DNA of 64,000 nucleotides, taken from NCBI RefSeq assembly GCF_009914755.1, contig NC_060933.1; one strand, given 5' to 3'. The position numbers were made by a program, and so were the translations under genes. Under the pieces are notes generated by a model that made no database searches, was not told where the DNA came from, and was given only the letters and a program-made list of their open reading frames with translations. Below are positions 1 to 52,814 of the stretch, one piece after another (position 1 is the stretch's first letter; each line of letters opens with the position of its first letter). Origin of the DNA: the human T2T-CHM13v2.0 reference genome, Homo sapiens.

Positions 1-3000
1 GTCGGGTTGATTCCATTCCATTCCATTCCATTCCATTCCATTCCATTCCGTTCCATTCCATTCCATTCCATTCCATTCTATTCGGGTCAACTCCATTCCA
101 TTCCATTCCATTCAAATTCCATTCCACTCCATTCCAATCGAGTTGATTCCATTCCATTCCTTTCCATTCCATTCCACTCCATTCCAGTCCTTTCCATTCC
201 ATTCCACTCGGGTTGATTCCATTTTATTCATTTCCATTCCATTCCATTCCATTGCAATCGAGTTGATTCCATTGTTTTGCATTCCATTCCATTCCATTCC
301 ATTCCGGATGATTCCATTCCATTGCATTCCATTCCATTCCATTCCCCTGCACTCGGGTTGATTCCATTCCATTCCACTCCATTCCGTTCCATTCCATTCC
401 ATTCCATTGTATTCGGGTTAATTCCATTCCATTCCATTCCATTCCATTCCATTACAATCGAGTTGATTCCATTCCATTCCATTCCATACCATTCCATTCC
501 ATTCCATTCCATTCCATTCCATTCCATTCCATTCCGTTCCATTCCGTTCCATTCCGTTCCATTCCATTCCATTCCATTCCATTCCGGATGATTCCATTCC
601 ATTGAATTCCATTCCATTCCATTCCCCTGCACTTGGGTTGATTCCATTCCATTCCATTCCATTCCTTTCCGTTCCATTCCATTCCATTCCATTCCATTCT
701 ATTCGTGTTAATTCCATTCCATTCTATTACATTCCATTCCATTGAAATCGAGTTGATTCCATTCCATTCCATTCCATTCCATTCCATTGCATTCCGGATG
801 ATTCCATTCCATTGCATTCAATTCCATTCCATTCCCCTGCACTCGGGTTGATTACATTCCATTCCATTCCCTTCCATTCCTTTCCATTCCATTCCATTCC
901 ATTCTATTCGTGTTAATTCCATTCCATTCCACTCCATTCCATTCCATTCCATTCCATTCCATTCCCCTGCACTCGGGTTTCTTCCATTCCATTCCATTCC
1001 ATTTAATTCCATTCCATTCCATTCCATTCCATTCCAATCCGTTCCATTCCATTCCATTCCATTCCATTGCAATCTACTTGATTCCATTCCATTCCATTCC
1101 ATTCCATTCCATTCCATTCCATTCCATTCCATTCCATTGCATTCCATGCGATTCCACTCGGGTTGATTCCATTCCTTTCCATTCCATTCGGGTTGAATCC
1201 ATTCCACTCCATTCCATTCCATTCGAATCCATTCCATTGCACTCGGGTTGATTCCATTCCATTCCATTCCATTCGATTCCATTCCGTTCCATTCCATTCC
1301 ATTCCATTTCATTACATTCAGATTGATTCTATTCAATTCCCTTACACTCCATTATATTCCAATCCATTCTGGTTGTTTCCATTCCATTCCATTCCATTTC
1401 ACTCCATTCCATTGCACTCGGTTTGATTCCATTCCATTCCATTCCATTCCATTCCAGATGATTCCATTCCATTGCATTCCGTTCCATTCCATTCCCCTGC
1501 ACTCAGGTTGATTCCATTCCATTCCATTCCACTCCATTTGGTTCCATTCCATTCCATTCTATTGCATTCCATTCTATTCGGGTTAATTCCATTCCATTCT
1601 ATTCCATTCCATTCCACTCCATTCCATTGCAATGGAGTTGATTCCATTCCATTCCATTCCATTCCATTCCGGATGATTCCATTCCATTGCATTCCATTCC
1701 ATTCCATTCCATTCCATTCCGGATGATTCCATTCCATTGCATTCCATTCCATTCCATTCCCCTGCACTCGTGTTGATTCCATTCCCTTCCATTCCATTCC
1801 ATTCCGTTCCATTCCATTGCATTCCATTCTATTCCAGTTAATTCCATTCCATTCCATTCGATTGCAATCGAGTTGATTCCATTCCATTCCATTCCATTCC
1901 ATTCCATTCCATTCCTTTCCTTTCCATTCCATTACGAATGATTCCATTCCATTGCATTCCATTCCATTCCATTCAATTCCATTCCGTTCCATTCCATTCC
2001 ATTACATTCGGATTGATTCAATTCAACTCCCTTACTCTCCATTACATTCCATTCCATTCGGGTTGTTCCATTCCATTCCATTCCATTCCACTCCATTCCA
2101 TTGCACTCGGGTTTATTCCATTCCATTCCATTCCATTCCATTCCATTCCATTCCGGAAGATTCCATTCCATTGCATTCCATTCCATTCCATTCCCCTGCA
2201 TTCGCGTTGATTACATTCCATTCCATTCCATTCCATTCTATTCCATTCCTTTCCGTTCCATTCCATTCCATTCCATTCCATTCCAATCCATTCCATTCCG
2301 GTCCGTTCCGTTCCATTCCATTCCATTCCATTCTATTCGGGTTAATTCCATTCCATTCCATTCGATTGCCAACGAGTTGATTCCATTCCATTCCATTCCA
2401 TTCCATTCCACTCCATTCCAGTCCTTTCCATTCCATTCCACTCGGGTTGATTCCAATGTATTCCTTTCCATTCCATTCCATTCCATTGCAATCGAGTTGA
2501 TTCCATTGATTTGCATTCCATTCCATTCCATTCCATTCCGGATGATTCCATTCCATTGCATTCCATTCCATTCCATTCCCCTGCACTCGGGTTGATTCCA
2601 TTCCATTCCTCTCCATTCCGTTCCATTCCATTCCATTGCATTGTATTCAGGTTAATTACATTCCATTCCATTCCATTCCATTACAATTGAGTTGATTCCA
2701 TTCCATTCCATTCCATTCCAGTCCTTTCCATTCCATTCCACTCGGGTTGATTCCATTCTATTAGTTTCCATTCCATTCCATTCCGTTCCATTCCACTCTG
2801 GTTGATTCCATTCCTTTCCATTCCACTCGAATACATTCCCTCCTATTCCACTCGGAACGATTCCATTCCATTCCATTCCATTCCATTCCATTCCATTCCA
2901 TTCCATTTCGTTCCATTCCATTCTTTTCCGTATCATTCCATTCAATTCCATTCCATTTCATTCCATTCCATTCCATTCCATTCCATTCCATTCCATTGTA

Positions 3001-5149
3001 CTCGGGTTGATTCCATTCCATTGCATTCCATTCCATTCCATTCCATTCCATTCCATTCCATTCCATTCCGGATGATTCCATTCCATTGCATTCCGTTCCA
3101 TTACATTCCCCTGCACTCGCGTTGATTCCATTCCATTCCATTCCATTCTATTCAATTCCATTCCATTACAATTCGTTCCATTCCATTCTATTCCGTACCA
3201 TTCCATTCCATTTCATACCATTCCATTCCATTCCATTCCATTCCATTCCATTCCATTCCATTCCGTTCCATTCCATTCCATTCTATTCGGGTTAATTCCA
3301 TTCCATTCCATTCCATTCCATTATTTTCCATTCCATTGCAATCGAGTTGAATCCATTGCATTTCATTCCATTCCATTCCATTCCATTCCATTCCGGAAGA
3401 TTCCATTCCATTGCATTCCATTCCATTCCATTCCCCTGCACTCGCGTTGATTCCATTCCATTCCATTCCATTCCATTCCATTCCATTCCATTCCATTCCA
3501 TTCCCTTCCGTTCCTTTCCATTCCATTCCATTCCATTCCATTCCGTTCCGTTCCATTCCATTCCATTCCATTCTATTCGGGTTAATTCCATTCCATTCCA
3601 TTCGATTGCAATCGTGTTGATTCCATTCCATTCCATTCCATTCCATTCCATTCCATTCCATTCCCCTGTACTCGGGTTGACTCCATTCCATTGCATTCCA
3701 ATCCATGCCCTTCCACTCGTGTTGATTCCATTCTTTCCATTCCATTCAAGTTGAATCCATTCCATTGCATTCCATTCCATTCGATTCCATTCGATTGCAC
3801 TCGGGTTGATTCCATTCCATTGCATTCTATTCCATTCCATTCCATTCCATTCCATTCCATTCCATTCCGTTCCATTCTATTCCATTACATTCGGATTGAT
3901 TCTATTCAATTCGCTTACACTCCATTACATTCCATTCCATTCGGGTAGTTTCCACTCCATTCCATTCCATTCCTCTCCATTCCATTGCACTCGGGTTGAT
4001 TCCATTCCATTGCATTCCATTCCATTCCATTCAATTCCATTCCGTTCCATTCTATTCCTTTACATTCGGATTGATTCTATTCAACTCCCTTACTCTCCAT
4101 TACATTCCATTCCATTCGGGCTGTTCCATTCCATTCCATTCCATTCCACTCCATTCCATTGCACTCGGGTTTATTCCATTCCATTCCATTCCATTCCATT
4201 CCATTCCATTCCGGAAGATTCCATTCCATTGCATTCCATTCCATTCCATTCCCCTGCACTCGCGTTGATTCCATTCCATTCCATACCATTCCATTCCATT
4301 CCATTCCATTCCATTCCATTCCATTCCTTTCCGTTCCATTCCATTCCATTCCATTCCATTCCATTCCATTCCGTTCCATTCCGTTCCATTCCATTCCATT
4401 CCATTCTATTCGGGTTAATTCCATTCCATTCCATTCCATTGCAATCGAGTTGATTCCATTCCATTCCATTCCATTCCATTCCATTCCATTCCATTCCTTT
4501 CCATTCCATTACGGATGATTCCATTCCATTGCATTCCATTCCATTCCATTCCCCTGTACTCGGGTTCATTCCATTCCATTCCATTCCAATCCATGCCATT
4601 TCACTCGTGTTGATTCCATTCTTTCCATTCCATTCAAGTTGAATCCATTCCATTCCATTCCATTCCATTCCATTCCATTTCGTTCCATTCCATTCTATTC
4701 CGTATCATTCCATTCCATTCCATTCCATTCCATTCCATTCCATTCCACTCGTGTTGATTCCATTCCTTTCCATTCCATTCGGTTTGAAGGCATTCCATTC
4801 CATTCCATTCCATTCCATTCCATTCCATTGTACTCGGGTTGATTGCATTCCATTGCATTGCATTCCATTCCATTCCGTTGCATTCCATTCCATTACATTC
4901 GGAATGATTCTATTCAACTCCCTTATTCTCCATTATATTCCATTCCATTCGGGTTGTTCCATTCCATTCCATTCCATTCCACTCCATTCCATTGCACTCG
5001 GGTTGATTCCATTCCACTCCATTCCATTCCATTCCATTCCATTCCATTCCGGATGATTCCATTCCATTGCATTCCGTTCCATTACATTCCCCTGCACTCG
5101 CGTTGATTCCATTCCATTCCATTCCATTCCATTCCATTCCATTCCATTC

Positions 5150-8100
5150 CGGATGATTCCATTCCATTGCATTCCATTCCATTCCATTCCCCTATACTCG
5201 GGTTGATTCCATTCCATTCCATTCCAATCCATGCCATTCCACTCGTGTTGATTCCATTCTTTCCATTCCATTCAATTTGAATCCATTCCATTGCATTCCA
5301 TTCCATTCGATTCCATTCGATTGCACTCGGGTTGATTCCATTCCATTGCATTCCATTCCATTCCATTCCATTCCATTCCATTCCGTTCCATTCCATTTCA
5401 TTACATTCAGATTGAATCTATTCAATTCCCTTACACTCCATTATATTCCAATCCATTCTGGTTGTGTCCATTCCATTCCATTCCATTTCACTCCATTCCA
5501 TTGCACTCGGGTTGATTCCATTCCATTCCATTCCATTGCATTCCATTCCATTCCATTCCGGATGATTCCATTCCATTGCCTTCCATTCCATTCCATTCCC
5601 CTGCAGTCGGGTTGATTCCATTCCATTCCATTCCATTCCATTCCATTCCATTCCGTTCCGTTCCATTCCATTCCATTCCATTCTATTCGGGTTAATTCCA
5701 TTCCATTCCATTCCATTCCATTCCAATCGAGTTGATTCCATTCCATTCCATTCCATTCCATTCCACTCCATTCCAGTCCTTTCCATTCCATTCCACTCGG
5801 GTTGATTCCAATGTATTCCTTTCCATTCCATTCCATTCCATTGCAATCGAGTTGATTCCATTGCTTTGCATTCCATTCCATTCCATTCCATTCCGGATGA
5901 TTCCATTCCATTGCATTCCATTCCATTCCATTCCCCTGCACTCGGGTTGATTCCATTCCATTCCATTCCATTCCATCACAATCGAGTTGGTTCCATTCCA
6001 TTCCATTCCATTCCATTCCATTCCATTCCGGATGATTCCATTCCATTACATTCCGTTCCATTACATTCCCCTGCACTCGGGTTGATTCCATTCCATTCCA
6101 TTCCATTCCATTCGATTCCATTCCATTCCAATTATTTCCATTCCATTCTATTCCGTACCATTCCATTCCATTCCATACCATTCCAGTCCATTCCATTCCA
6201 TTCTATTCCATTCCATTGCAATCGAGTTGAATCCATTGCATTCCATTCTATTTCATTCCATTCCATTCCGTTCCATTCCATTCCATTACATTCGGATTGA
6301 TTCTATTCAACTCCCTTACTCTCCATTACGTTCCATTCCATTCGGGTTGTTTCTTTCCATTCCATTCCATTCCACTTCATTCCATTGCACTCAGGTTGAT
6401 TCCATTCCATTCCATTCCATTCCGGAAGATTCCATTCCATTGCATTCCATTACATTCCATTCCCCTGCACTCGCGTTGATTATATTCCATTCCATTCCAT
6501 TCCATTCCATTCCATTCCTTTCCGTTCCATTCCATTCCATTCCGTTCCGTTCCGTTCCAATCCATTCCATTCCATTCTATTCGAGTTAATTCCATTCCAT
6601 TTCATTCGATTGCAATCGAGTTGATTCCATTCCATTCCATTCCATTCCATTCCATTCCATTCCATTCCATTCCATTACGGATGATTCCATTCCATTGCAT
6701 TCCATTCCATTCCATTCCCCTGTATTCGGGTTGACTCCATTCCATTCCATTCCAATCCATGCCATTCCGCTCGTGTTGATTCAATTCTTTCCATTCCATT
6801 CAAGTTGAATCCATTCCATTGCATTCCATTCCATTCGATTCCATTCGATTGCACTCGGGTTGATTCCATTCCATTGCATTCCATTCCATTCCATTTCATT
6901 ACATTCCATTCCTTTCCATTCCATTCCATTCCATTCAATTCCATTGCAATCGAGTTGATTCCATTCCATTCCTTTCCATTCCATTCCATTGCCTTGCATT
7001 CCACTCGGGTTGATTCCATTCCCTTCTTTCCACTCCATTACATTCCCTTCCATTTCACTCGCAATGATTGATTCCATTCCATTCCATTCCATTTCATTCC
7101 ATTGCAATCCATTCCAATCCATTCCATTCCATTCCATTCCACTCGAGTTGATTTCATTCCATTCCATTCCATTCCATTCCATTCCTTTCCACTCGAGTTG
7201 ATTCCATTCCATGCCATTCCATTGCATTCCATTCCATGCCATTCCACTCGCGTTGATTCCATTCCATTCCATTCCATTCCATTCCAATCCATTGCATTCC
7301 ATTCCATTCCATTCCCCTGCACTCTGGTTGATTCCATTCCATTCCATTCTATTTAATTCCATTCCATTCCATTCCATTCCATTCCATTCCAATCCGTTCC
7401 ATTCCATTCCATTCCATTCTATTGCAATCGACTTGATTCCATTCCATTCCATTCCATTCCATTCCATTCCATTCCATTTTGTTCCAATCCATTCTATTCC
7501 GAACAATTCCATTCCATTCCATTCCATTCCATTCCATTCCATTCCATGCCATTCCACTCGGTTTGATTCCAATCCTTTCCATTCCATTCCATTCCATTCC
7601 ATTACAATCGAGTTGATTCCATTCCATTCCATTCTATTCCAGTCCTTTCCATTCCATTCCACTCGGGTTGATTCCATTCTATTAGTTTCCATTCCATTCC
7701 ATTCCCTTCCATTCCACTCTGGTTGATTCCATTCCTTTCCATTCCACTCGAATACATTCCCTCCTATTACACTCGGAACGATTCCATTCCATTCCATTCC
7801 ATTCCATTCCATTCCATTCCATTTCGTTCCATTCCATTCTATTCCGTATCATTCCATTCCATTCCATTCCATTCCATTCCATTCCATTGTACTTGGGTTG
7901 ATTCCATTCCATTGCAATCCATTCCATTCCATTCCATTCCATTCCATTCCATTCCATTCCATTCCGTTCCATTCCATTACATTCGGATTGATTCTTTTGA
8001 ACTCCGTTACTCTCCATTACATTCCATTCCATTCGGATTGTTCCATTCCATTCCATTCCATTCCACTCCATTCCATTGCACTCGGGTTGATTCCATTCCA

Positions 8101-11100
8101 TTGCATTCCATTCCATTCCGGATGATTCCATTCCATTGCATTCCGTTCCATTACATTCCCCTGCACTCGGGTTGATTCCATTCCATTCCATTCCATTGCA
8201 TTCGATTCCATTCCATTCCCCTGCACTCGCGTTGTTTCCATTCCATTCCATTCCATTCCATTCCTTTCCATTCCAGTCCTTTCCATTCCATTCCACTCGG
8301 GTTGATTCCATTCTATTAGTTTCCATTCCATTCCATTCCCTTCCTTTCCACTCTGGTTGATTCCATTCCTTTCCATTCCACTCGAATACATTCCCTCCTA
8401 TTCCACTCAGAACGACTCCATTCCATTCCATTCCATTCCAATCCATTCCATTCCATTCCATTTCTTTCCATTCCATTCTATTCCGTATCATTCCATTCCA
8501 TTCCATTCCATTCCATTCCATTCCATTCCATTCCATTGTACTCGGGTTGATTCCATTCCATTCCATTCCATTCCATTCCATTCCATTCCATTCCATTCCG
8601 TTCCATTCCATTACATTCGGATTGATTCTTTTCAACTCCCTTACTCTCCATTACATTCCATTCCATTCGGATTCTTCCATTCCATTCCATTCCATTCCAC
8701 TCCATTCCATTGCACTCGGGTTGATTCCATTCCATTCCATTCCATTCCATTCCATTCCATTCCGGATGATTCCATTCCATTGCATTCCGTTCCATTACAT
8801 TCCCCTGCACTCGCGTTGATTCCATTCCATTCCATTCCATTCCATTCAATTCCATTCCATTACAATTCGTTCCATTGCATTCTATTCCGTACCATTCCAT
8901 TCCATTCCATTCCATTCCATTCCATTCCATTCCGTTCCATTCCGTTCCATTCCATTCCATTCCATTCTATTCGGATTAATTCCATTCCATTGCATTCCAT
9001 TCCATTCTATTCCATTCCATTGCAATCTATTTGAATCCATTGCATTTCATTCCATTCCATTCCATTCCATTCCATTCCATTCCATTCCATTCCGGAAGAT
9101 TCCATTCCATTGCATTCCATTCCATTCCATTCCCCTGCAGTCGCATTGATTCCATTCCATTCCATTCCATTCCATTCCGTTCCGTTCCATTCCATTCCAT
9201 TCCATTCCATTCCATTCCATTCCATTCCGTTCCGTTCCATTCCATTCCATTCCATTCTATTCGGGTTAATTCCATTCCATTCCATTCGATTGCAATCGAG
9301 TTGATTCCATTCCATTCCATTCCATTCCATTCCATTCCATTCCATTCCTTTCCATTCCATTACGGATGATTCCATTCCATTGCATTCCATTCCATTCCAT
9401 TCCCCTGTACTCGGGTTGATTCCATTCCATTCCATTCCAATCCATGCCATTCCACTCGTGTTGATTCCATTCTTTCCATTGCATTCAAGTTGAATCCATT
9501 CCATTGCATTCCATTCCATTCGATTCCATTCGATTGCACTCGGGTTCATTCCATTCCATTGCATTCCAATCGATTCCATTCTATTCCATTCCATTCCATT
9601 CCGTTCCATTCCATTCCATTACATTCGGATTGATTCTATTCAATTCCCTTACACTCCATTACATTCCATTCCATTCGGGTAGTTTCCATTCCATTCCATT
9701 CCATTCCTCTCCATTCCATTGCACTCGGGTTGATTCCATTCCATTGCATTCCATTCCATTCCATTCAATTCCATTCCGTTCCATTCCATTACATTACATT
9801 CGGATTGATTCTATTCAACTCCCTTACTCTCCATTACATTCCATTCCATTCGGGTTGTTCCATTCCATTCCATTCCATTCCACTCCATTCCATTGCACTC
9901 GGGTTGATTCCATTCCATTCCATTCCATTCCATTCCGGATGATTCCATTCCATTGCGTTCCGTTCCATTACATTCCCCTGCACTCGGGTTGATTCCATTC
10001 CATTCCATTCTATTCCATTCGATTCCATTCCATTCCCCTGCACTCGCGTTGATTCCATTCCATTCCATTCCATTCCATTCCATTCCATTCCATTCCTTTC
10101 CATTCCAGTCCTTTCCATTCCATTCCACTCAGGTTGATTCCATTCTATTAGTTTCCAATCCATTCCATTCCCTTCCATTCCACTCTGGTTGATTCCATTC
10201 CTTTCCATTCCACTCGAATACATTCCTTCCTATTAGACTCGGAACGATTCCATTCCGTTCCATTCCATTCCATTCCATTCCATTCCATTTCGTTCCATTC
10301 CATTCTATTCCTTATCATTCCATTCCATTCCATTCCATTCCATTCCACTCGTGTTGATTCCATTCCTTTCCATTCCATTCGGTTTGAAGGCATTCCATTC
10401 CATTCCATTCCATTCCATTCCATTCCATTCCATTCCATTCCGTTTCATTGTACTCGGGTTGATTCCATTCCATTGCATTCCATTCCATTCCATTCCATTC
10501 CATTCCGTTGCATTCAATTCCATTTCATTCGGATTGATTCTATTCAACTCCCTTACTCTCCATTACATTCCATTCCATTCGGGTTGTTCCATTCTTTTCC
10601 ATTCCGTTCCATTCCACTCCATTCCATTGCACTCGGGTTGATTCCATTCCATTCCATTCCATTCCATTCCATTCCGGATGATTCCATTCCGTTGCATTCC
10701 GTTCCATTACATTCCCCTGCACTCGCGTTGATTCCATTCCATTCCATTCCATTCCATTCAATTCCATTCCATTACAATTCGTTCCATTCCATTCTATTCT
10801 GTACCATTCCATTCCATTCCATACCATTCCATTCCATTCCATTCCATTCCATTCCGTTCCATTCCGTTCCATTCCATTCCATTCCATTCTATTCGGGTTA
10901 ATTCCATTCCATTCCATTCCATTCCATTCCATTCCATTCTATTCCATTCCATTGCAATCGAGTTGAATCCATTGCATTTCATTCCATTCCATTCCATTCC
11001 ATTCCATTCCGGAAGATTCCATTCCATTGCATTCCATTCCATTCCATTCCCCTGCACTCGCGTTTATTCCATTCCATTCCATTCCATTCCATTCCATTCC

Positions 11101-14100
11101 GTTCCGTTCCGTTCCATTCCATTCCATTCCGTTCCGTTCCATTCCATTCCATTCCATTCTATTCGGGTTAATTCCATTCCATTCCATTCGATTGCAGTCG
11201 AGTTGATTCCATTCCATTCCATTCCATTCCATTCCATTCCATTCCATTCCATTTCGTTGCATTCCATTCTATTCCGTATCATTCCATTCCATTCCATTCC
11301 TTTCCATTCCATTCCATTCCATTCCACTCGTGTTGATTCCATTCCTTTCCATTCCATTCGATTTGAAGGCATTCCATTCTATTCCATTCCATTCCATTCC
11401 ATTCCATTCCATTCCATTGTACTCGGGTTGATTCCATTCCATTGCATTCAATTCCATTCCATTCCATTCCTTTCCATTCCGTTGCATTCCATTCCATTAC
11501 ATTCGGATTGATTCTATTCATCTCCCTTACTCTCCATTACATTCCATTCCATTCGGGTTGTTCCATTCCATTCCATTCCATTCCACTCCATTCCATTGCA
11601 CTCGGGTTGATTCCATTCCATTCCATTCCATTCCATTCGATGTCATTCCATTCCAATTCTTTCCATTCCATTCTATTCCGTACCATGCCATTCCATTCCA
11701 TACAATTCCATTCCATTCCATTCCACTCCGTTCCGTTCCGTTCCGTTCCGTTCCATTCCATTCCATTCCATTCTATTCGGGTTAATTCCATTCCATTCCA
11801 TTCGATTGCAATCGAGTTGATTCCATTCCATTCAATTCCATTCCATTCCATTCCATTCCATTCCATTCCATTCCATTCCTTTCCATTCCATTACGGATGA
11901 TTCCATTCCATTGCATTCCATTCCATTCCATTCCCCTGTACTCGGGTTGATTCCATTCCATTCCATTCCAATCCATGCCATTCCACTCGTGTTGATTCCA
12001 TTCTTTCCATTCCATTCAAGTTGAATCCATTCCATTGCCTTCCATTCCATTCCATTCCCCTGCAGTCGGGTTGATTCCATTCCATTCCATTCCATTCCAT
12101 TCCATTCCATTCCGTTCCGTTCCGTTCCATTCCATTCCATTCCATTCCATTCCATTCCATTCCATTCCATTGTACTCGGGTTGATTCAATTCCATTGCAT
12201 TCCATTCCATTCCATTCCATTCCATTCCGTTGCATTCCATTCCATTACATTCGGATTGATTCTATTCAACTCCCTTACTCTCCATTACATTCCATTCCGT
12301 TCTGGTTGTTCCATTCCATTCCATTCCATTCCATTCCACTCCATTCCATTGCACTCGGGTTGATTCCATTCCATTCCATTCCATTCCATTCCATTCCGGA
12401 TGATTCCATTCCATTGCATTCCTTTCCATTACATTCCCCTGGACTCGCGTAGATTCCATTCCATTCCATTCCATTCCATTCCATTGCATTACAATTCGTT
12501 CCATTCCATTCTATTCCGTACCATTCCATTCCATTCCATACAGTTCCATTCCATTCCATTCCATTCCATTCCGTTCCATTGCATTCCATTCCATTCTATT
12601 CGGATTAATTCCATTCCATTCCATTCCATTCCATTCTATTCCATTCCATTGCAATCGAGTTGAATCCATTGCATTTCATTCCATTCCATTCCATTTCATT
12701 CCATTCCGGAAGATTCCATTCCATTGCATTCCATTCCATTCCATTCCCCTGCACTCGCGTTGATTCCATTCCATTCCATTCCATTCCATTCCGTTACGTT
12801 CCATTCCATTCCATTCCATTCCATTCCATTCCATTCCGTTCCGTTCCATTCCATTCCATTCCATTCTATTCGGGTTAATTCCATTCCATTCCATTCGATT
12901 GCAATCGAGTTGATTCCATTCCATTCCATTCCATTCCATTCCATTCCATTCCATTCCTTTCAATTCCATTACGGTTGATTCCATTCCATTGCATTCCATT
13001 CCATTCCATTCCGCTGTACTCGGGTTGATTCCATTCCATTCCATTCCAATCCATGCCATTCCACTCCTGTTGATTCCATTCTTTCCATTCCATTCAAGTT
13101 GAATCCATTCCATTGCATTCCATTCCATTCGATTCCATTTGATTGCACTCGGGTTGATTCCATTCCATTGCATTCCATTCCATTCCATTCCATTCCGTTC
13201 CATTCCGTTCCATTCCATTCCATTACATTCGGATTGATTCTATTCAATTCCCTTACACCCCATTACATTCCATTCGGGTAGTTTCCATTGCATTCCATTC
13301 CATTCCTCTCCATTCCATTGCACTCGGGTTGATTCCATTCCATTGCATTCCATTCCATTCCATTCAATTCCATTCCGTTCCATTCCATTCCATTACATTC
13401 GAATTGATTCTATTCAACTCCCTTACTCTCCATTACATTCCATTCCATTCGGGTTGTTCCATTCCATTCCATTCCACTCCATTCCATTGCACTCGGGTTG
13501 ATTCCATTCAATTCCATTCCATTCCATTCCATTCCATTCCATTCCATTCCGGAAGATTCCATTCCATTGCATTCCATTCCATTCCATTCCCCTGCACTCG
13601 CGTTGATTCCATTCCATTCCATTCTATTCCATTCCATTCCCTTCCTTTCCGTTCCATTCCATTCCATTCCATTCCATTCCATTCCGTTCCGTTCCATTCC
13701 ATTCCATTCCAGTCTATTCGGGTTAATTGCATTCCATTCCATTCGATTGCAATCGAGTTGATTCCATTCCATTCCATTCCATTCCATTCCTTTCCATTCC
13801 ATTACGGATGATTCCATTCCATTGCATTCCATTCCATTCCATTCCCCTGTACTCGGGTTGATTCCATTCCATTCCATTCCAATCCATGCCATTCCACTCG
13901 TGTTGATTCCATTCTTTCCATTCCATTCAATTTGAATCCATTCCATTGCATTCCATTCCATTCGATTCCATTCGATTGCACTCGGGTTGATTCCATTCCA
14001 TTGCATTCCATTCCATTCCATTCCATTCCATTCCATTCCGTTCCATTCCATTCCATTACATTCGGATTGATTCTATTCAATTCCCTTACACTCCATTACA

Positions 14101-14652
14101 TTCCATTCCATTCGGGTAGTTTCCATTCCATTCCATTCCATTCCTCTCCATTCCATTGCACTCGGGTTGATTCCATTCCATTGCATTCCATTCCATTCCA
14201 TTCAATTCCATTCCGTTGCATTCCATTCCATTACATTCAGATTGATTCTATTCAACTCCCTTACTCTGCATTACATTCCATTCCATTCGGGTTGTTCCAT
14301 TCCATTCCATTCCATTCCACTCCATTCCATTGCACTCTGGTTGATTCCATTCCATTCCATTCCATTCCATTCCATTCCATTCCATTCCGGAAGATTCCAT
14401 TCCATTGCATTCCATTCCATTCCATTCCCATGCACTCGCGTTGATTCCATTCCATTCCATTCTATTCCATTCCTTTCCCTTCCTTTCCCTTCTACTCCAT
14501 TCCATTCCATTCCATTCCATTCCATTCCGTTCCGTTCCATTCCATTCCATTCCATTCTATTCGGGTTAATTCCATTCCATTCCTTTCGATTGCAATCGAG
14601 TTGATTCCATTCCATTCCATTCCATTCCACTCCATTCCTTTCCATTCCATTA
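5150..14652 (+). repeat. Macro-duplication copy 1 (about 9.5 kb)
   Basis: Private markers recur at +9.49-9.50 kb: CCTATACTCGG 5191/14694, CCCTTCTTTCCACTCC 7021/16514, and near-identical pseudo-ORFs 6781-7812 / 16274-17305. Confidence 0.88.
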
Positions 14653-14900
14653 CGGATGATTCCATTCCATTGCATTCCATTCCATTCCATTCCCCTATAC
14701 TCGGGTTGATTCCATTCCATTCCATTCCAATCCATGCCATTCCACTCGTGTTGATTCCATTCTTTCCATTCCATTCAATTTGAATCCATTCCATTGCATT
14801 CCATTCCATTCGATTCCATTCGATTGCACTCGGGTTGATTGCATTCCATTGCATTCCATTCCATTCCATTCCATTCCATTTCATTACATTCAGATTGATT
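12700..14900 (+). repeat. Tandem sub-repeat of about 830-850 bp (also present in copy 2 at about 24420-26620)
   Basis: The same word order recurs: TTCAA(G/T)TTGAATCC at about 13093, 13926 and 14774; HSE word at 12703, 13546 and 14384. Confidence 0.75.
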
Positions 14901-17900
14901 CTATTCAATTCCCTTACACTCCATTATATTCCAATCCATTCTGGTTGTGTCCATTCCATTCCATTCCATTTCACTCCATTCCATTGCACTCGGGTTGATT
15001 CCATTCCATTCCATTCCATTGCATTCCATTCCATTCCATTCCGGATGATTCCATTCCATTGCCTTCCATTCCATTCCATTCCCCTGCAGTCGGGTTGATT
15101 CCATTCCATTCCATTCCATTCCATTCCATTCCATTCCATTCCATTCCGTTCCGTTCCATTCCATTCCATTCCATTCTATTCGGGTTAATTCCATTCCATT
15201 CCATTCCATTCCATTCCAATCGAGTTGATTCCATTCCATTCCATTCCATTCCATTCCACTCCATTCCAGTCCTTTCCATTCCATTCCACTCGGGTTGATT
15301 CCAATGTATTCCTTTCCATTCCATTCCATTCCATTGCAATCGAGTTGATTCCATTGCTTTGCATTCCATTCCATTCCATTCCATTCCGGATGATTCCATT
15401 CCATTGCATTCCATTCCATTCTATTCCCCTGCACTCGGGTTGATTCCATTCCATTCCATTCCATTCCATCACAATCGAGTTGGTTCCATTCCATTCCATT
15501 CCATTCCATTCCATTCCGGATGATTCCATTCCATTACATTCCGTTCCATTACATTCCCCTGCACTCGGGTTGATTCCATTCCATTCCATTCCATTCCATT
15601 CGATTCCATTCCATTCCAATTATTTCCATTCCATTCTATTCCGTACCATTCCATTCCATTCCATACCATTCCAGTCCATTCCATTCCATTCTATTCCATT
15701 CCATTGCAATCGAGTTGAATCCATTGCATTCCATTCTATTTCATTCCATTCCATTCCGTTCCATTCCATTCCATTACATTCGGATTGATTCTATTCCACT
15801 CCCTTACTCTCCATTACATTCCATTCCATTCGGGTTGTTTCTTTCCATTCCATTCCATTCCACTTCATTCCATTGCACTCAGGTTGATTCCATTCCATTC
15901 CATTCCATTCCGGAAGATTCCATTCCATTGCATTCCATTACATTCCATTCCCCTGCACTCGCGTTGATTATATTCCATTCCATTCCATTCCATTCCATTC
16001 CATTCCTTTCCGTTCCATTCCATTCCATTCCGTTCCGTTCCGTTCCAATCCATTCCATTCCATTCTATTCGGGTTAATTCCATTCCATTTCATTCGATTG
16101 CAATCGAGTTGATTCCATTCCATTCCATTCCATTCCATTCCATTCCATTCCATTCCATTCCATTCCATTACGGATGATTCCATTCCATTGCATTCCATTC
16201 CATTCCATTCCCCTGTATTCGGGTTGACTCCATTCCATTCCATTCCAATCCATGCCATTCCGCTCGTGTTGATTCAATTCTTTCCATTCCACTCAAGTTG
16301 AATCCATTCCATTGCATTCCATTCCATTCGATTCCATTCGATTGCACTCGGGTTGATTCCATTCCATTGCATTCCATTCCATTCCATTTCATTACATTCC
16401 ATTCCTTTCCATTCCATTCCATTCCATTCAATTCCATTGCAATCGAGTTGATTCCATTCCATTCCTTTCCATTCCATTCCATTGCCTTGCATTCCACTCG
16501 GGTTAATTCCATTCCCTTCTTTCCACTCCATTACATTCCCTTCCATTTCACTCGCAATGATTGATTCCATTCCATTCCATTCCATTTCATTCCATTGCAA
16601 TCCATTCCAATCCATTCCATTCCATTCCATTCCACTCGAGTTGATTTCATTCCATTCCATTCCATTCCATTCCATTCCTTTCCACTCGAGTTGATTCCAT
16701 TCCATGCCATTCCATTGCATTCCATTCCATGCCATTCCACTCGCGTTGATTCCATTCCATTCCATTCCATTCCATTCCAATCCATTGCATTCCATTCCAT
16801 TCCATTCCCCTGCACTCTGGTTGATTCCATTCCATTCCATTCCATTTAATTCCATTCCATTCCATTCCATTCCATTCCATTCCAATCCGTTCCATTCCAT
16901 TCCATTCCATTCTATTGCAATCGACTTGATTCCATTCCATTCCATTCCATTCCATTCCATTCCATTCCATTTTGTTCCAATCCATTCTATTCCGAACCAT
17001 TCCATTCCATTCCATTCCATTCCATTCCATTCCATTCCATGCCATTCCACTCGGTTTGATTCCAATCCTTTCCATTCCATTCCATTCCATTCCATTACAA
17101 TCGAGTTGATTCCATTCCATTCCATTCTATTCCAGTCCTTTCCATTCCATTCCACTCGGGTTGATTCCATTCTATTAGTTTCCATTCCATTCCATTCCCT
17201 TCCATTCCACTCTGGTTGATTCCATTCCTTTCCATTCCACTCGAATACATTCCCTCCTATTACACTCGGAACGATTCCATTCCATTCCATTCCATTCCAT
17301 TCCATTCCATTCCATTTCGTTCCATTCCATTCTATTCCGTATCATTCCATTCCATTCCATTCCATTCCATTCCATTCCATTGTACTCGGGTTGATTCCAT
17401 TCCATTGCAATCCATTCCATTCCATTCCATTCCATTCCATTCCATTCCATTCCATTCCATTCCGTTCCATTCCATTACATTCGGATTGATTCTTTTGAAC
17501 TCCCTTACTCTCCATTACATTCCATTCCATTCGGATTGTTCCATTCCATTCCATTCCATTCCACTCCATTCCATTGCACTCGGGTTGATTCCATTCCATT
17601 GCATTCCATTCCATTCCGGATGATTCCATTCCATTGCATTCCGTTCCATTACATTCCCCTGCACTCGGGTTGATTCCATTCCATTCCATTCCATTGCATT
17701 CGATTCCATTCCATTCCCCTGCACTCGCGTTGATTCCATTCCATTCCATTCCATTCCATTCCTTTCCATTCCAGTCCTTTCCATTCCATTCCACTCGGGT
17801 TGATTCCATTCTATTAGTTTCCATTCCATTCCATTCCCTTCCTTTCCACTCTGGTTGATTCCATTCCTTTCCATTCCACTCGAATACATTCCCTCCTATT

Positions 17901-20900
17901 CCACTCAGAACGACTCCATTCCATTCCATTCCATTCCATTCCATTCCATTCCATTCCATTCCATTTCTTTCCATTCCATTCTATTCCGTATCATTCCATT
18001 CCATTCCATTCCATTCCATTCCATTCCATTCCATTCCATTGTACTCGGGTTGATTCCATTCCATTCCATTCCATTCCATTCCATTCCATTCCATTCCATT
18101 CCGTTCCATTCCATTACATTCGGATTGATTCTTTTCAACTCCCTTACTCTCCATTACATTCCATTCCATTCGGATTCTTCCATTCCATTCCATTCCATTC
18201 CACTCCATTCCATTGCACTCGGGTTGATTCCATTCCATTCCATTCCATTCCATTCCGGATGATTCCATTCCATTGCATTCCGTTCCATTACATTCCCCTG
18301 CACTCGCGTTGATTCCATTCCATTCCATTCCATTCCATTCAATTCCATTCCATTACAATTCGTTCCATTGCATTCTATTCCGTACCATTCCATTCCATTC
18401 CATACCATTCCATTCCATTCCATTCCATTCCATTCCGTTCCATTCCGTTCCATTCCATTCCATTCCATTCTATTCGGATTAATTCCATTCCATTGCATTC
18501 CATTCCATTCTATTCCATTCCATTGCAATCTATTTGAATCCATTGCATTTCATTCCATTCCATTCCATTCCATTCCATTCCATTCCGGAAGATTCCATTC
18601 CATTGCATTCCATTCCATTCCATTCCCCTGCAGTCGCATTGATTCCATTCCATTCCATTCCATTCCATTCCGTTCCGTTCCATTCCATTCCATTCCATTC
18701 CATTCCATTCCATTCCGTTCCGTTCCATTCCATTCCATTCCATTCTATTCGGGTTAATTCCATTCCATTCCATTCGATTGCAATCGAGTTGATTCCATTC
18801 CATTCCATTCCATTCCATTCCATTCCATTCCATTCCTTTCCATTCCATTACGGATGATTCCATTCCATTGCATTCCATTCCATTCCATTCCCCTGTACTC
18901 GGGTTGATTCCATTCCATTCCATTCCAATCCATGCCATTCCACTCGTGTTGATTCCATTCTTTCCATTGCATTCAAGTTGAATCCATTCCATTGCATTCC
19001 ATTCCATTCGATTCCATTCGATTGCACTCGGGTTCATTCCATTCCATTGCATTCCAATCGATTCCATTCCATTCCATTCCATTCCATTCCGTTCCATTCC
19101 ATTCCATTACATTCGGATTGATTCTATTCAATTCCCTTACACTCCATTACATTCCATTCCATTCGGGTAGTTTCCATTCCATTCCATTCCATTCCTCTCC
19201 ATTCCATTGCACTCGGGTTGATTCCATTCCATTGCATTCCATTCCATTCCATTCAATTCCATTCCGTTCCATTCCATTACATTACATTCGGATTGATTCT
19301 ATTCAACTCCCTTACTCTCCATTACATTCCATTCCATTCGGGTTGTTCCATTCCATTCCATTCCATTCCACTCCATTCCATTGCACTCGGGTTGATTCCA
19401 TTCCATTCCATTCCATTCCATTCCGGATGATTCCATTCCATTGCGTTCCGTTCCATTACATTCCCCTGCACTCGGGTTGATTCCATTCCATTCCATTCTA
19501 TTCCATTCGATTCCATTCCATTCCCCTGCACTCGCGTTGATTCCATTCCATTCCATTCCATTCCATTCCATTACATTCCTTTCCATTCCAGTCCTTTCCA
19601 TTCCATTCCACTCAGGTTGATTCCATTCTATTAGTTTCCAATCCATTCCATTCCCTTCCATTCCACTCTGGTTGATTCCATTCCTTTCCATTCCACTCGA
19701 ATACATTCCTTCCTATTAGACTCGGAACGATTCCATTCCGTTCCATTCCATTCCATTCCATTCCATTCCATTTCGTTCCATTCCATTCTATTCCTTATCA
19801 TTCCATTCCATTCCATTCCATTCCATTCCATTCCACTCGTGTTGATTCCATTCCTTTCCATTCCATTCGGTTTGAAGGCATTCCATTCCATTCCATTCCA
19901 TTCCATTCCATTCCATTCCATTCCATTCCATTCCGTTTCATTGTACTCGGGTTGATTCCATTCCATTGCATTCCATTCCATTCCATTCCATTCCATTCCG
20001 TTGCATTCAATTCCATTTCATTCGGATTGATTCTATTCAACTCCCTTACTCTCCATTACATTCCATTCCATTCGGGTTGTTCCATTCTTTTCCATTCCAT
20101 TCCATTCCACTCCATTCCATTGCACTCGGGTTGATTCCATTCCATTCCATTCCATTCCATTCCATTCCGGATGATTCCATTCCGTTGCATTCCGTTCCAT
20201 TACATTCCCCTGCACTCGCGTTGATTCCATTCCATTCCATTCCATTCCATTCAATTCCATTCCATTACAATTCGTTCCATTCCATTCTATTCCGTACCAT
20301 TCCATTCCATTCCATACCATTCCATTCCATTCCATTCCATTCCATTCCGTTCCATTCCGTTCCATTCCATTCCATTCCATTCTATTCGGGTTAATTCCAT
20401 TCCATTCCATTCCATTCCATTCCATTCCATTCTATTCCATTCCATTGCAATCGAGTTGAATCCATTGCATTTCATTCCATTCCATTCCATTCCATTCCAT
20501 TCCGGAAGATTCCATTCCATTGCATTCCATTCCATTCCATTCCCCTGCACTCGCGTTTATTCCATTCCATTCCATTCCATTCCATTCCATTCCGTTCCGT
20601 TCCGTTCCATTCCATTCCATTCCGTTCCGTTCCATTCCATTCCATTCCATTCTATTCGGGTTAATTCCATTCCATTCCATTCGATTGCAGTCGAGTTGAT
20701 TCCATTCCATTCCATTCCATTCCATTCCATTCCATTCCTTTCCATTCCATTACGGATGATTCCATTCCATTGCATTCCATTCCATTCCATTCCCCTGTAC
20801 TCGGGTTGATTCCATTCCATTCCATTCCAATCCATGCCATTCCACTCGTGTTGATTCCATTCTTTCCATTCCATTCAAGTTGAATCCATTCCATTGCATT

Positions 20901-26373: not shown

Positions 26374-27200
26374 CGGATGATTCCATTCCATTGCATTCCA
26401 TTCCATTCCATTCCCCTATACTCGGGTTGATTCCATTCCATTCCATTCCAATCCATGCCATTCCACTCGTGTTGATTCCATTGTTTCCATTCCATTCAAT
26501 TTGAATCCATTCCATTGCATTCCATTCCATTCGATTCCATTCGATTGCACTCGGGTTGATTCCATTCCATTGCATTGCATTCCATTCCATTCCATTCCAT
26601 TCCATTCCATTCCGTTCCATTCCATTTCATTACATTCAGATTGATTCTATTCAATTCCCTTACACTCCATTATATTCCAATCCATTCTGGTTGTGTCCAT
26701 TCCATTCCATTCCAATTCACTCCATTCCATTGCACTCGGGTTGATTCCATTCCATTCCATTCCATTGCATTCCATTCCATTCCATTCCGGATGATTCCAT
26801 TCCATTGCCTTCCATTCCATTCCATTCCCCTGCAGTCGGGTTGATTCCATTCCATTCCATTCCATTCCATTCCATTCCATTCCATTCCATTCCATTCCGT
26901 TCCGTTCCATTCCATTCCATTCCATTCTATTCGGGTTAATTCCATTCCATTCCATTCCATTCCATTCCAATCGAGTTGATTCCATTCCATTCCATTCCAT
27001 TCCATTCCACTCCATTCCAGTCCTTTCCATTCCATTCCACTCGGGTTGATTCCAATGTATTCCTTTCCATTCCATTCCATTCCATTGCAATCGAGTTGAT
27101 TCCATTGCTTTGCATTCCATTCCATTCCATTCCATTCCGGATGATTCCATTCCATTGCATTCCATTCCATTCCATTCCCCTGCACTCGGGTTGATTCCAT
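26374..27200 (+). repeat. Macro-duplication partial copy 3
   Basis: CCTATAC at 26415, CTGGTTGTGTCC at about 26687 and following words match 5150-5950 and 14653-15450, then diverge. Confidence 0.8.
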
Positions 27201-43369: not shown

Positions 43370-44150
43370 ATTCCATTCCATTCCTTTCCGTTCCATTCCA
43401 TTCCATTCCATTCCATTCCGTTCCGTTCCATTCCATTCCATTCCATTCTATTCGCGTTAATTCCATTCCATTCCATTCGATTGCAATCGAGTTGATTCCA
43501 TTCCATTCCATTCCATTCCATTCCATTCCATTCCTTTCCATTCCATTACGGATGATTCTATTCCATTGCATTCCATTCCATTCCATTCCCCTGTACTCGG
43601 GTTGATTCCATTGCATTCCATTCCATTCCATTCCCCTGCAGTTGGGTTGATTCCATTCCATTCCATTCCATTCCATTCCATTCCATTCCGTTCCGTTCCG
43701 TTCCGTTCCATTCCATTCCATTCCATTCTATTCGGGTTAATTCCATTCCATTCCATTCCATTCCATTCCATTCCTTTCCGTTCCATTCCATTCCATTCCA
43801 TTCCATTCCGTTCCGTTCCATTCCATTCCATTCCATTCTATTCGCGTTAATTCCATTCCATTCCATTCGATTGCAATCTAGTTGATTCCATTCCATTCCA
43901 TTCCATTCCATTCCATTCCATTCCATTCCATTCCATTCCATTCCATTCCATTACGGATGATTCTATTCCATTGCATTCCATTCCATTCCATTCCCCTGTA
44001 CTCGAGTTGATTCCATTGCATTCCATTCCATTCCATTCCCCTGCAGTCGGGTTGATTCCATTCCATTCCATTCCATTCCATTCCATTGCATTCTGTTCCG
44101 TTCCGTTCCATTCCATTCCATTCCATTCTATTCGGGTTAATTCCATTCCA
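43370..44150 (+). repeat. Tandem duplication of about 390-405 bp
   Basis: Private variants TTCGCGTTAA 43451/43841 and GATGATTCTA 43551/43956. Confidence 0.82.
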
Positions 44151-50100: not shown

Positions 50101-52814
50101 CTATTCCACTCGGAACGATTCCATTCCATTCCATTCCATTCCATTCCATTCCATTCCATTCCATTTCTTTCCATTGCATTCTATTCCGTGTCCTTCCATT
50201 CCATTCCATTCCATTCCATTCCCCTGCAGTCGGGTTGTTTCCATTCCATTCCATTCCATTCCATTCCATTCCATTCCATTCCATTCCGATCCGTTCCATT
50301 CCATTCCATTCCATTCTATTCGGGTTAATTCCATTCCATTCCATTCCATTCCATTCCATTCCATTCCATTCCATTCCAATCGAGTTGATTCCATTCCATT
50401 CCATTCCATTCCATTCCACTACATTCCAGTCCTTTCCATTCCATTCCACTCGGGTTGATTCCAATGTATTCCTTTCCATTCCATTCCATTCCATTGCAAT
50501 CGAGTTGATTCCATTGCTTTGCATTCCATTCCATTCCTTTCCATTCCGGATGATTCCATTCCATTGCATTCCATTCCATTCCATTCCTCTCCATTCCATT
50601 GCACTCGGGTTGATTCCATTCCATTCCATTCCATTCCATTCCATTCCATTACATTACATTACATTACATTCCGTTCCTTTCTACTCGGGTTGATTCCATT
50701 CCATTGCATTCCATTCCATTCCATTACATTACATTCCATTCCCTTCCATTCCATTCCGTTCCATTCCATTACATTCGGATTGATTCAATTCAACTCCCTT
50801 ACTCTCCATTACATTCCATTCCATTCGGGTTGTTCCATTCCATTCCATTACATTCCACTCCATTCCATTGCGCTCCGGTTGATTCCATTCCATTCCATTC
50901 CATTCCATTCCATTCCATTCCATTCCGGATGATTCCATTCCATTGAATTCCGTCCCATTACATTCCCTTGCACTCGGGTTGATTCCATTCCATTCCATTC
51001 CATTCCATTCGATTCCATTCCATTCCAATTCTTTCCATTCCATTCTATTCCGTACCATTCCATTCCATTCCATACAATTCCATTCCATTCCATTCCACTC
51101 CGTTCCGTTCCTTTCCGTTCTGTTCCGTTCCATTCCATTCCATTCCATTCTATTCGGTTTAATTCCATTCCATTCCATTCCATTCCATTCCATTCTATTC
51201 CATTCCATTGCAATCGAGTTGAATCCATTGCATTCCATTCCATTCCATTCCATTCCATTCCATTCCATTCCATTCCATTCCATTGTACTCGGGTTGATTC
51301 CATTCCATTGCATTCCATTCCATTCCATTCCATTCCGGAAGATTCCATTCCATTGCATTCCATTCCATTCCATTCCCCTTCACTCGCGTTGATTCCATTC
51401 CATTCCATTCTATTCCATTCCATTCCCTTCCTTTCCGTTCCATTCCATTCCATTCCATTCCATTCCCCTGCACTCGCGTTGATTCCATTCCATTCCATTC
51501 TATTCCATTCCATTCCCTTCCTTTCCGTTCCATTCCATTCCATTCCATTCCGTTCCGTTCCATTCCATTCCATTCCATTCTATTCTGGTTAATTCCATTC
51601 CATTCCATTCGATTGCAATCGAGTTGATTCCATTCCATTCCATTCCATTCCATTCCATTCCATTCCATTCCATTCCTTTCCTTTCCATTACGGATGATTC
51701 CATTCCATTGCATTCCATTCCATTCCATTCCCCTGTACTCGGGTTGATTCCATTCTATTCCATTCCAATCCATGCCATTCCACTCGTGTTGATTCCATTC
51801 TTTCCATTCCATTCAAGTTGAATCCATTCCATTGCATTCCATTCCATTCGATTCCATTCGATTGCACTCGGTTTGATTCCATTCCATTGCATTCCATTCC
51901 ATTCCATTCCATTCCATTCCGTTCCATTCCATTCCATTACATTCGGATTGATTCTATTCAATTCCCTTACACTCCATTACATTCCATTCCATTCGGGTAG
52001 TTTCCATTCCATTCCATTCCATTCCTCTCCATTCCATTGCACTCGGGTTGATTCCATTCCATTGCATTCCATTCGATACCATTCAATTCCATTCCGTTCC
52101 ATTCCATTCCATTACATTCGGATTGATTCTATTCAACTCCCTTACACTCCATTACATTCGATTCCATTCGGGTTGTTCCATTCCATTCCATTCCATTCCT
52201 CTCCATTCCATTGCACTCGGGTTGATTCCATTCCATTCCATTCCATTCCGGAAGATTCCATTCCATTGCATTCCATTAAATTCCATTCCCCTGTACTCGC
52301 GTTGATTCCATTCCATTCCATTCCATTCCTTTGCATTCCATTGCATTCCATTGCATTCCATTCCCCTGCACTCAGGTTGATTCCATTCCATTCCATTCCA
52401 TTCCATTCCATTCTATTCACGTTAATTCCATTCCACTCCATTCCATTACATTCCATTGCAATCGACTTGATTCCATTCCATTCCATTCCATTCCATTCCA
52501 TTCCATTCCATTCCCTTCCATTCCACTCTGGTTGATTCCATTCCTTTCCATTCTACTCGATTGCATTCCCTTCTATTCCACTCGGATTGATTCCATTCCA
52601 TTCCGTTCCATTCCATTCCATTTCGTTCCATTCCATTCTATTCCATTCCATTCCATTCCATTCCTTTCCATTCCATTCCGTTCCATTCCATTCCATTCCA
52701 TTCCATTTCTTTGCATTCCATTCTATTCCATACCATTCCATTCCATTCCGTTCCATGCCATTCCACTCGGGTTGATTCCATTGCTTTCCATTCCATTTGG
52801 GTTGAATCCATTCC

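What the first reader, a model, noticed from the sequence alone, without database searches (positions are those of the whole stretch)
2150..52259. One word turns the satellite into an array of perfect heat-shock elements, confined to one domain
Seen: replacing one pentamer by GGAAG gives aTTCc-gGAAg-aTTCc. I count 31 copies in 1-52.3 kb (about one per 1.7 kb) and none in 52.3-64 kb on either strand. The commoner sister word ATTCC-GGATG-ATTCC is a one-mismatch version. Established: HSF1 trimers bind three alternating nGAAn units, and HSF1 drives Satellite III transcription and nuclear stress bodies. Pure (GGAAT)n has only direct repeats. Inference: this word is the sequence determinant of HSF1 loading, so HSat3 sub-domains would be hard-wired as stress-responsive or not, with a boundary inside this window.
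Basis: partly seen in the sequence, partly recalled or inferred. Interest (0 to 1): 0.85.

Follow-up and report, generated by a model that had tools for sequence, protein, structure and literature searches.

The report
Heat-shock sites in chromosome 9 satellite
A 15-base word scattered through the big chromosome 9 satellite is a textbook binding site for the heat-shock factor HSF1, it is missing from a 31-kb island of a different satellite subtype, and the general idea that such sites mark where HSF1 lands is already in print.

Summary
ATTCCGGAAGATTCC occurs 30 times, not 31. A variant at 36,583 brings the count of perfect TTCnnGAAnnTTC elements to 31. All lie on the + strand between 2,150 and 52,259, and none lies beyond.

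The cut-off is a real change of sequence type. Rare 20-mers are shared within 1-52 kb and within 52.8-64 kb, but not across.

It is not the edge of a large silent domain. With 200 kb more sequence, the element-free stretch is a 30,970-bp island over a strand switch, and the elements return beyond it in inverted orientation.

The word is a one-base variant (GGATG to GGAAG) of a roughly 60-bp module of chr9 HSat3. The T2T genome holds 12,700 copies, none on chr1-8.

Franklin et al. report HSF1 motifs in sub-regions of HSat3 arrays, with heat-shock ChIP-seq following motif density. Canonical elements in Y-chromosome satellite III are also described.

The exact word and the 5-31 kb mosaic were not found in print.

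HSF1 binding at this word is inferred here, not shown.

The parts
2150..52259 (+). Span holding 31 perfect three-unit heat-shock elements (TTCnnGAAnnTTC). The 30 exact ATTCCGGAAGATTCC start at 2150, 3390, 4208, 6419, 9089, 11006, 12703, 13546, 14384, 15907, 18582, 20499, 22027, 24424, 25257, 26105, 27843, 28666, 30229, 32648, 34636, 34910, 35624, 38795, 41143, 45592, 47560, 48974, 51332 and 52245. One variant, ATTCCGGAAGGTTCC, starts at 36583.
2150..2214 (+). One example of the roughly 60-65 bp module that carries the word: the word, then ATTCC, ATTGC, four ATTCC-like pentamers, then CCTGCACTCGCGTTG (or a close variant of that end; this copy differs by a few bases). The sister word GGATG sits in the same module, mostly with ACTCGGGTTG downstream.
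   Evidence: 113 of 117 exact words in 264 kb and 10,456 of 12,700 genome-wide carry the same 15 bases downstream.
1..52300 (+). Type A satellite (ATTCC strand, element-bearing). It is irregular, with large internal duplications, for example 5,016-11,220 matching 14,494-20,713 at an offset near 9.49 kb and 98.0% identity.
52300..52800 (.). Transition between type A and type B satellite, located by rare 20-mer sharing in 100-bp tiles.
52800..60360 (+). Type B satellite with no inverted TTC/GAA pair. It has a 3,833-bp higher-order period: 52,799-56,343 against 56,632-60,166 is 97.1% identical, against about 81% for unrelated stretches.
60360..60366 (.). Strand-switch junction from the ATTCC strand to the GGAAT strand, with the short non-satellite spacer GTGTGC. 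The arms are not a palindrome (83% against an 81% background).
60367..64000 (-). Inverted type B-related satellite (GGAAT on the + strand) with no heat-shock element. It shares rare 20-mers, as reverse complement, with 52.8-60.4 kb and not with 1-52 kb. It continues outside the window to about 83.2 kb on the extended scale.

Best explanation
The window lies in the chromosome 9 q12 Human Satellite 3 array, inside the coordinates shown in print for hSat3_9_3(B5). The word ATTCCGGAAGATTCC is a canonical trimeric heat-shock element. It probably arose by one T-to-A change in the GGATG slot of a roughly 60-bp sub-repeat module, and it was then copied along with the array to about 12,700 copies. It is most likely the high-affinity landing site that makes 9q12 the primary place where activated HSF1 trimers gather and start satellite III transcription. 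The array is a mosaic. Element-bearing type A blocks are interrupted by 5-31 kb islands of type B satellite, which carries only GGATG-type slots and no inverted TTC/GAA pair. The 'boundary' in this window is the left edge of one such 31-kb island, which straddles a strand switch. Shown here: the sequence facts, the copy numbers and the mosaic. Inferred: HSF1 occupancy at the word, and any functional effect of the islands.
For: The element is perfect and unique in kind. There are 31 TTCnnGAAnnTTC in 1-52,259, they supply all 62 inverted TTC/GAA dimers there, and type B has none.

The module has a single origin. The same downstream 15 bases follow 113 of 117 words locally and 10,456 of 12,700 genome-wide.

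GGAAG is probably the derived form. It fills 0 of 19 GGAWG slots in 49 kb of type B, against 31 of 111 in type A. The sister word is commoner genome-wide, at 20,563 copies.

Chromosome specificity. The listing is in numeric contig order, and the first exact word is at C9:49,162,019, so chr1-8 have none. In a DNA search with the 90-bp module, 40 of 557 candidates were scored, and all 40 full-length matches at 98% identity or more (110 alignments in all) lie on C9 between 49.57 and 73.28 Mb. One 10-kb HSat3-like sample of chr15 has 0. Local density of 117 per 264 kb, and 0.425 per kb at 49.29-49.52 Mb, scaled to a 27.6-Mb array gives roughly 12,000, close to the genome total.

Genome weight. The word makes up 12,700 of 76,189 perfect three-unit elements in the genome. 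The reversed-pattern control gives 43,994.

Mosaic. In 264 kb there are 129 elements. Gaps of 30,970 and 20,973 bp coincide with type B blocks, and type B tiles hold 8 of 129 where 41 were expected.

Literature. HSF1 motifs sit in sub-regions of HSat3, with ChIP-seq enriched where motifs are dense (PMC11526998). 9q12 is the primary HSF1 target (PMC2173303, PMC7889540).
Against: No binding or transcription data were analysed here, so occupancy at this word is inferred. Jolly et al. found that HSF1 binds the 158-bp chr9 clone pHuR98 in vitro, although they describe its NGAAN units as not organised like a canonical element. Some binding may therefore not need the word, and I could not check whether pHuR98 holds it. 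HSF1 DNA-binding domains have been crystallised on head-to-tail satellite III repeats (cited in PMC8379338). In HT1080 cells 9q12 is not bound in vivo despite its sequence. Chromosomes 10-22, X and Y were not listed by the pattern search, so exclusivity to chr9 is shown only against chr1-8, one chr15 sample and the 40 scored DNA matches. Only 264 kb of a 27.6-Mb array was read contiguously.
Confidence: 0.7

Rival explanations
1. HSF1 is loaded on 9q12 by the bulk satellite, either through the many direct GGAAT units bound head-to-tail or through unusual secondary structure. On this reading the perfect element is a neutral passenger that spread by array amplification.
For: HSF1 shifts pHuR98, whose NGAAN units are said to differ from a canonical element, and the authors propose recognition of secondary structure (PMC2173303). 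Co-crystals of HSF DNA-binding domains on head-to-tail satellite III repeats are cited in PMC8379338. Copies of the word share one module and lie in recent duplications of 97-98% identity, so their number needs no selection.
Against: Direct GGAAT repeats are common to the other HSat2 and HSat3 arrays, yet 9q12 and Yq12 are the primary HSF1 targets. Published ChIP-seq follows HSF1-motif density, whereas the evenly spread TEAD motifs give even signal. pHuR98 needed more HSF1 than a consensus element did (above 12.5 ng against above 3 ng).
Confidence: 0.12
2. The word is a functional element, but sequence sets only the potential. Chromatin state, cofactors and HSF1 dose decide which blocks fire, and 5-31 kb islands without elements make no measurable difference to nuclear stress bodies, which work at megabase scale.
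For: HT1080 cells form stress bodies on Yq12 and not on 9q12, although 9q12 binds HSF1 in vitro and when HSF1 is overexpressed (PMC7889540). Heat-shock RNA is described as up across the entirety of the chr9 array (PMC11622622). The islands are small next to the 27.6-Mb array. The type B marker count of 2,537 suggests roughly a tenth of the array, which is a rough scaling.
Against: Sub-regional differences in ChIP-seq that track motif density are reported. At the proximal edge of the array, 49.07-49.18 Mb holds about 97 sister words but only one exact element, so larger element-poor stretches do exist.
Confidence: 0.3
3. The empty last 11.7 kb is a chance gap in a clustered, duplicated array and not a change of sequence type.
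For: Sites are inherited in 9.5-kb and 11.7-kb duplications, so they are not independent.
Against: Rare 20-mers show no sharing between 1-52 kb and 52.8-64 kb. The gap extends to 30,970 bp. The same type B sequence recurs wherever elements are missing: it holds 8 of 129 elements in 67.2 kb where 41 were expected.
Confidence: 0.01

Closest known systems
HSF1-motif-dense sub-regions of HSat3 arrays (Franklin et al., bioRxiv 2024/2025, PMC11526998; passages, methods section 13 and figure legends read)
   Same: Same assembly and the same satellite family.
   Different: In the passages I read, the paper works with JASPAR matrices at array and sub-region scale. It does not spell out the 15-base word, its module, its copy number or the 5-31 kb islands. 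Its figures and supplementary data were not visible to me and may show more.
Canonical heat-shock elements in Y-chromosome satellite III (DYZ1, Yq12; Penin et al. 2021, PMC7889540; passages read)
   Same: Perfect elements interspersed in a satellite III repeat at about one per kb (four in 3,564 bp), with HSF1 ChIP and stress bodies at that locus.
   Different: It is a different chromosome and a different HSat3 subfamily. The spelling of the Y elements was not seen, so they cannot be compared with the chr9 word.
Putative heat-shock elements at 9q12 noted as an unpublished observation (Vourc'h et al. 2022 review, PMC9032817; passages read)
   Same: Same locus and the same idea.
   Different: No sequence, number or map is given. 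[quoted passage not shown]
pHuR98 (D9Z3), the classical chr9 satellite III clone bound by HSF1 in vitro (Jolly et al. 2002, PMC2173303; passages read)
   Same: Chr9-specific satellite III, with direct HSF1 binding that a consensus element competes away.
   Different: The authors describe its NGAAN units as organised unlike a canonical element. The word here is canonical. Whether pHuR98 contains the word could not be checked.

Membership tests
Canonical heat-shock element (HSE) | At least three contiguous, alternately inverted nGAAn units | tested here: met
   aTTCc-gGAAg-aTTCc matches TTCnnGAAnnTTC at 31 sites. Definition as read in PMC8379338.
Canonical heat-shock element (HSE) | Pyrimidine-purine dinucleotide between TTC and the following GAA (a common preference, not a requirement) | tested here: met
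   The spacer is CG in all 31 sites. The preference is stated in PMC8379338.
Canonical heat-shock element (HSE) | Bound by HSF1 trimers in vitro and after heat shock in vivo | not testable with these tools
   There is only indirect support from print: ChIP-seq follows motif density in HSat3.
Human Satellite 3, chr9 array (annotated hSat3_9_3, subfamily B5) | ATTCC-pentamer-derived satellite located in the chr9 q12 array | tested here: met
   About 110 ATTCC per kb with strong strand skew. The window is C9:70,990,001-71,054,000, inside chr9:52,732,572-72,971,764, the range shown for hSat3_9_3(B5) in a figure legend of PMC11622622.
Human Satellite 3, chr9 array (annotated hSat3_9_3, subfamily B5) | Subfamily-specific 24-mers of the published HSat2/3 classification | not tested
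   The diagnostic 24-mers were not available to me. The type A and type B labels used here are my own, from k-mer sharing.

The most novel reading that the evidence does not exclude
The chr9 array may be built as oppositely oriented transcription blocks. Each would be studded with about one perfect HSF1 site per 1.5-2 kb. The blocks would be separated, at the points where transcription of the GGAAU strand would diverge, by element-free islands of an older satellite subtype that is shared with chr5 by one marker word. Those islands would then be doubly silent, with no HSF1 site and no read-through from neighbours. The heritable copy number of the single word (12,700 in this genome) would set how much HSF1 a person's 9q12 can soak up.
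Probability: 0.15. Interest if true: 0.55.

Novelty: already known. Interest (0 to 1): 0.35.

Why it matters
In 2002 it was unclear how HSF1 recognises 9q12, because the classical clone showed no canonical element. A perfect element about every 2 kb across the array gives a simple answer, and it explains why chr9, rather than other pentamer satellites, is the primary stress-body site. That answer is already in print at coarse scale. This check adds several details:

- The exact spelling of the word and the module that carries it.
- A likely origin by one base change.
- A genome-wide count: one word supplies about a sixth of all perfect three-unit elements in the T2T genome.
- A fine-scale map showing element-free islands of 5-31 kb, not megabase domains, in this part of the array.

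These details make an alignment-free k-mer test of ChIP data straightforward.

Tried and rejected
I replaced it with k-mer diagonals and tile sharing.

A whole-array density profile could not be made. The pattern search lists only the first 100 places.

The chrY sample at 40.0 Mb was not pentamer satellite, with 7 ATTCC in 10 kb, so the Y elements were not compared.

I tested whether the strand-switch junction is a palindrome. It is not: the arms are 83% alike, against 81% for unrelated stretches.

A full-text search for the 15-mer in either orientation found 0 papers. The 136 hits were all to the shorter 12-mers, and the 20 listed were mostly primers in unrelated studies.

I considered a per-position conservation test of the word against its flanks. 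I dropped it because copies are related by recent block duplication, so it would not separate selection from amplification.
Full report
**Observation**

The word ATTCCGGAAGATTCC occurs 30 times in the window. All copies are on the + strand, from 2150-2164 to 52245-52259, and dinucleotide shuffles expect 0.00. TTCnnGAAnnTTC gives 31, which is the 30 exact words plus ATTCCGGAAGGTTCC at 36,583. The complementary phase, GAAnnTTCnnGAA, gives 0. Nothing lies beyond 52,259 on either strand. The sister word ATTCCGGATGATTCC occurs 51 times, the last at 50,922.

In 1-52,259 every inverted TTC/GAA pair comes from these 31 sites: 31 TTCnnGAA and 31 GAAnnTTC. In 52,260-64,000 there are none.

**Is the cut-off more than chance?**

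A Poisson rate of 31 per 52,259 bp gives P = 0.0009 for an empty last 11,741 bp. The sites are not independent, though, because they sit in duplicated blocks with offsets near 9.49 and 11.7 kb. The stronger evidence does not depend on the word at all:

- Rare 20-mers are shared among the 1-kb tiles 0-51, among tiles 52-59, and among tiles 60-63, with almost none shared between the first group and the other two.
- In 100-bp tiles the change falls at about 52.3-52.8 kb.
- Beyond it the satellite has a 3,833-bp period. The stretch 52,799-56,343 against 56,632-60,166 is 97.1% identical, where unrelated stretches are about 81% alike.
- At 60,360-60,366 the strand flips from ATTCC to GGAAT across a GTGTGC spacer.
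- The inverted part shares 20-mers, as reverse complement, with 52.8-60.4 kb and not with 1-52 kb.

I call the element-bearing kind type A and the other kind type B. These are my own labels.

**How far does the empty stretch go?**

I fetched the next 200 kb of chr9. In the joined 264 kb there are 129 perfect elements, 117 of them the exact word. The empty stretch that starts in the window ends at 83,216 on the extended scale, so it is 30,970 bp long. Beyond it the elements return on the other strand at the usual density.

A second empty stretch of 20,973 bp (172,176-193,149) lies over the next + to - strand switch, at about 183.4 kb. The - to + switch at about 96.4 kb has no such gap. Tile sharing shows that both gaps, a 6-kb patch at 153-159 kb, and 5-kb patches recurring every 10.3 kb or so at 198-225 kb are all the same type B sequence.

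At 3-kb resolution, type B tiles (67.2 kb) hold 8 of the 129 elements where 41 were expected. All 8 lie in the finely interleaved 198-225 kb part.

So the boundary is real. It is the edge of a 31-kb island in a mosaic, not the edge of a large silent domain.

**What the word is**

Every copy sits in one module: a run of ATTCC, the word, ATTCC, ATTGC, four ATTCC-like pentamers, then CCTGCACTCGCGTTG or a close variant. The same 15 bases follow the word in 113 of 117 local copies and in 10,456 of 12,700 genome-wide copies. The sister word sits in the same module, mostly with ACTCGGGTTG at the far end.

GGAAG fills 31 of 111 GGAWG slots in type A, but 0 of 19 in 49 kb of type B. The most economical reading is that GGATG is the older state, and that one T-to-A change made a perfect element that was then amplified. 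That direction of change is an inference.

**Genome-wide picture**

The exact word occurs 12,700 times in the T2T genome, 6,240 forward and 6,460 reverse. Places are listed in numeric contig order and the first is C9:49,162,019, so chr1-8 have none. A DNA search with the 90-bp module scored 40 of 557 candidates. All 40 full-length matches at 98% identity or more (110 alignments in all) are on C9 between 49.57 and 73.28 Mb, on both strands.

Density is 0.44 per kb in my 264 kb and 0.425 per kb at 49.29-49.52 Mb. Scaled to the 27.6-Mb array (size from PMC10505914) this gives about 12,000, close to the total. Most copies are therefore probably on chr9, but chr10-22, X and Y were not listed. One 10-kb HSat3-like sample of chr15 has no perfect element and no CCGG.

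All perfect three-unit elements in the genome number 76,189, against 43,994 for the reversed-pattern control. This one word is a sixth of them. In the ATTCC-N-GAA-N-ATTCC frame it accounts for 12,700 of 14,004.

The sister word occurs 20,563 times, with one copy on chr1 and the next listed from C9:48.79 Mb. At 49.07-49.18 Mb about 97 sister words are listed, but the only exact element before 49,287,718 is the one at 49,162,019. Element-poor stretches of 100 kb or more therefore do exist at the proximal edge of the array.

A type B marker 22-mer occurs 2,537 times, 74 of them on chr5 at 49.6-49.9 Mb and one on chr7. Scaled by its local density of 61 per 67.2 kb, type B would make up roughly a tenth of the array. 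This is a rough figure.

**Mechanism**

The word meets the textbook definition of a heat-shock element: three alternately inverted nGAAn units, one per DNA-binding domain of an HSF trimer, with the preferred pyrimidine-purine step between TTC and GAA (PMC8379338, passages). Activated HSF1 would bind each copy as a trimer. About 12,700 copies within one 27.6-Mb block would concentrate HSF1 into the visible foci and drive transcription of the GGAAU strand. This step is inferred, and I analysed no binding data.

It fits what is in print:
- 9q12 is the primary HSF1 target (PMC2173303, PMC7889540).
- HSF1 motifs lie in sub-regions of HSat3 arrays, and heat-shock ChIP-seq in MCF7 cells is enriched where motif density is high, whereas TEAD motifs and signal are even (PMC11526998).

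Points against a purely sequence-driven picture:
- pHuR98 binds HSF1 although its units are described as not canonical.
- Head-to-tail satellite III co-crystals exist.
- HT1080 cells leave 9q12 unbound in vivo.
- HeLa heat-shock RNA is described as up across the whole chr9 array (PMC11622622).

**Comparison with what is known, and novelty**

Canonical elements in Y-chromosome satellite III are in Penin et al.. Putative elements at 9q12 are mentioned as an unpublished observation, with the number of sites called unknown, in Vourc'h et al..

A full-text search found the 15-mer in no paper in either orientation. Three further searches brought up no paper that names it. I could not see figures or supplementary data of the preprint, and they may show more.

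I rate the finding as already known in substance. The spelling, module, copy number, likely origin and 5-31 kb mosaic are useful detail that I did not find in print.

**Limits**

- Only 264 kb was read contiguously.
- Distribution on chr10-22, X and Y is not shown.
- The type A and type B labels are mine and were not matched to the published subfamily 24-mers. The window lies inside the coordinates given for hSat3_9_3(B5) in a figure legend.

Noticed in passing
window 60360-60366: Strand switch from the ATTCC strand to the GGAAT strand across a 6-base non-satellite spacer (GTGTGC). The flanking arms are not a palindrome (83% alike, against an 81% background). In the 264-kb view both + to - switches (about 60.4 and 183.4 kb) lie inside element-free type B islands, while the single - to + switch (about 96.4 kb) does not. 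With the GGAAU strand transcribed, the + to - switches would be points of divergent transcription.
   Followed up: partly
window 1-64000: Nearly all CCGG (HpaII/MspI) sites belong to the GGAWG module. Of 88 CCGG in the window, 84 are ATTCCGG. They fall from about 1.7 per kb in 1-52 kb to 3 in the last 12 kb. The central CG of the element is therefore a methylatable CpG at the TTC/GAA junction.
   Followed up: partly
window 5016-11220 and 14494-20713: Large direct duplication at an offset near 9.49 kb and 98.0% identity. Further repeats lie at offsets near 11.7 kb. Six of the element sites are copies of each other through the 9.49-kb block.
   Followed up: partly
G000:C5:49615653-49906716: The 22-base marker of the element-free type B satellite also occurs 74 times in a chr5 pericentromeric array and once on chr7, whereas the element word is absent from chr1-8. 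Type B may be closer to an older, more widely shared HSat3 form.
   Followed up: no
whole genome: Perfect three-unit elements are strongly strand-asymmetric genome-wide: 45,122 reverse against 31,067 forward. The chr9 word is balanced (6,460 against 6,240), so another large array in a single orientation must supply about 14,000. The Y-chromosome DYZ1 repeat is a candidate from the literature, not tested here.
   Followed up: no
G000:C9:49070993-49287718: At the proximal edge of the chr9 array the sister word GGATG is dense, at about 0.9 per kb, but the perfect element occurs only once before 49.288 Mb. This is an element-poor stretch of 100 kb or more.
   Followed up: partly
L029 (G000:C15:10000001-10010000): The chr15 sample is a more diverged ATTCC satellite (705 ATTCC in 10 kb). 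It has no perfect element, no inverted TTC/GAA pair and no CCGG.
   Followed up: partly
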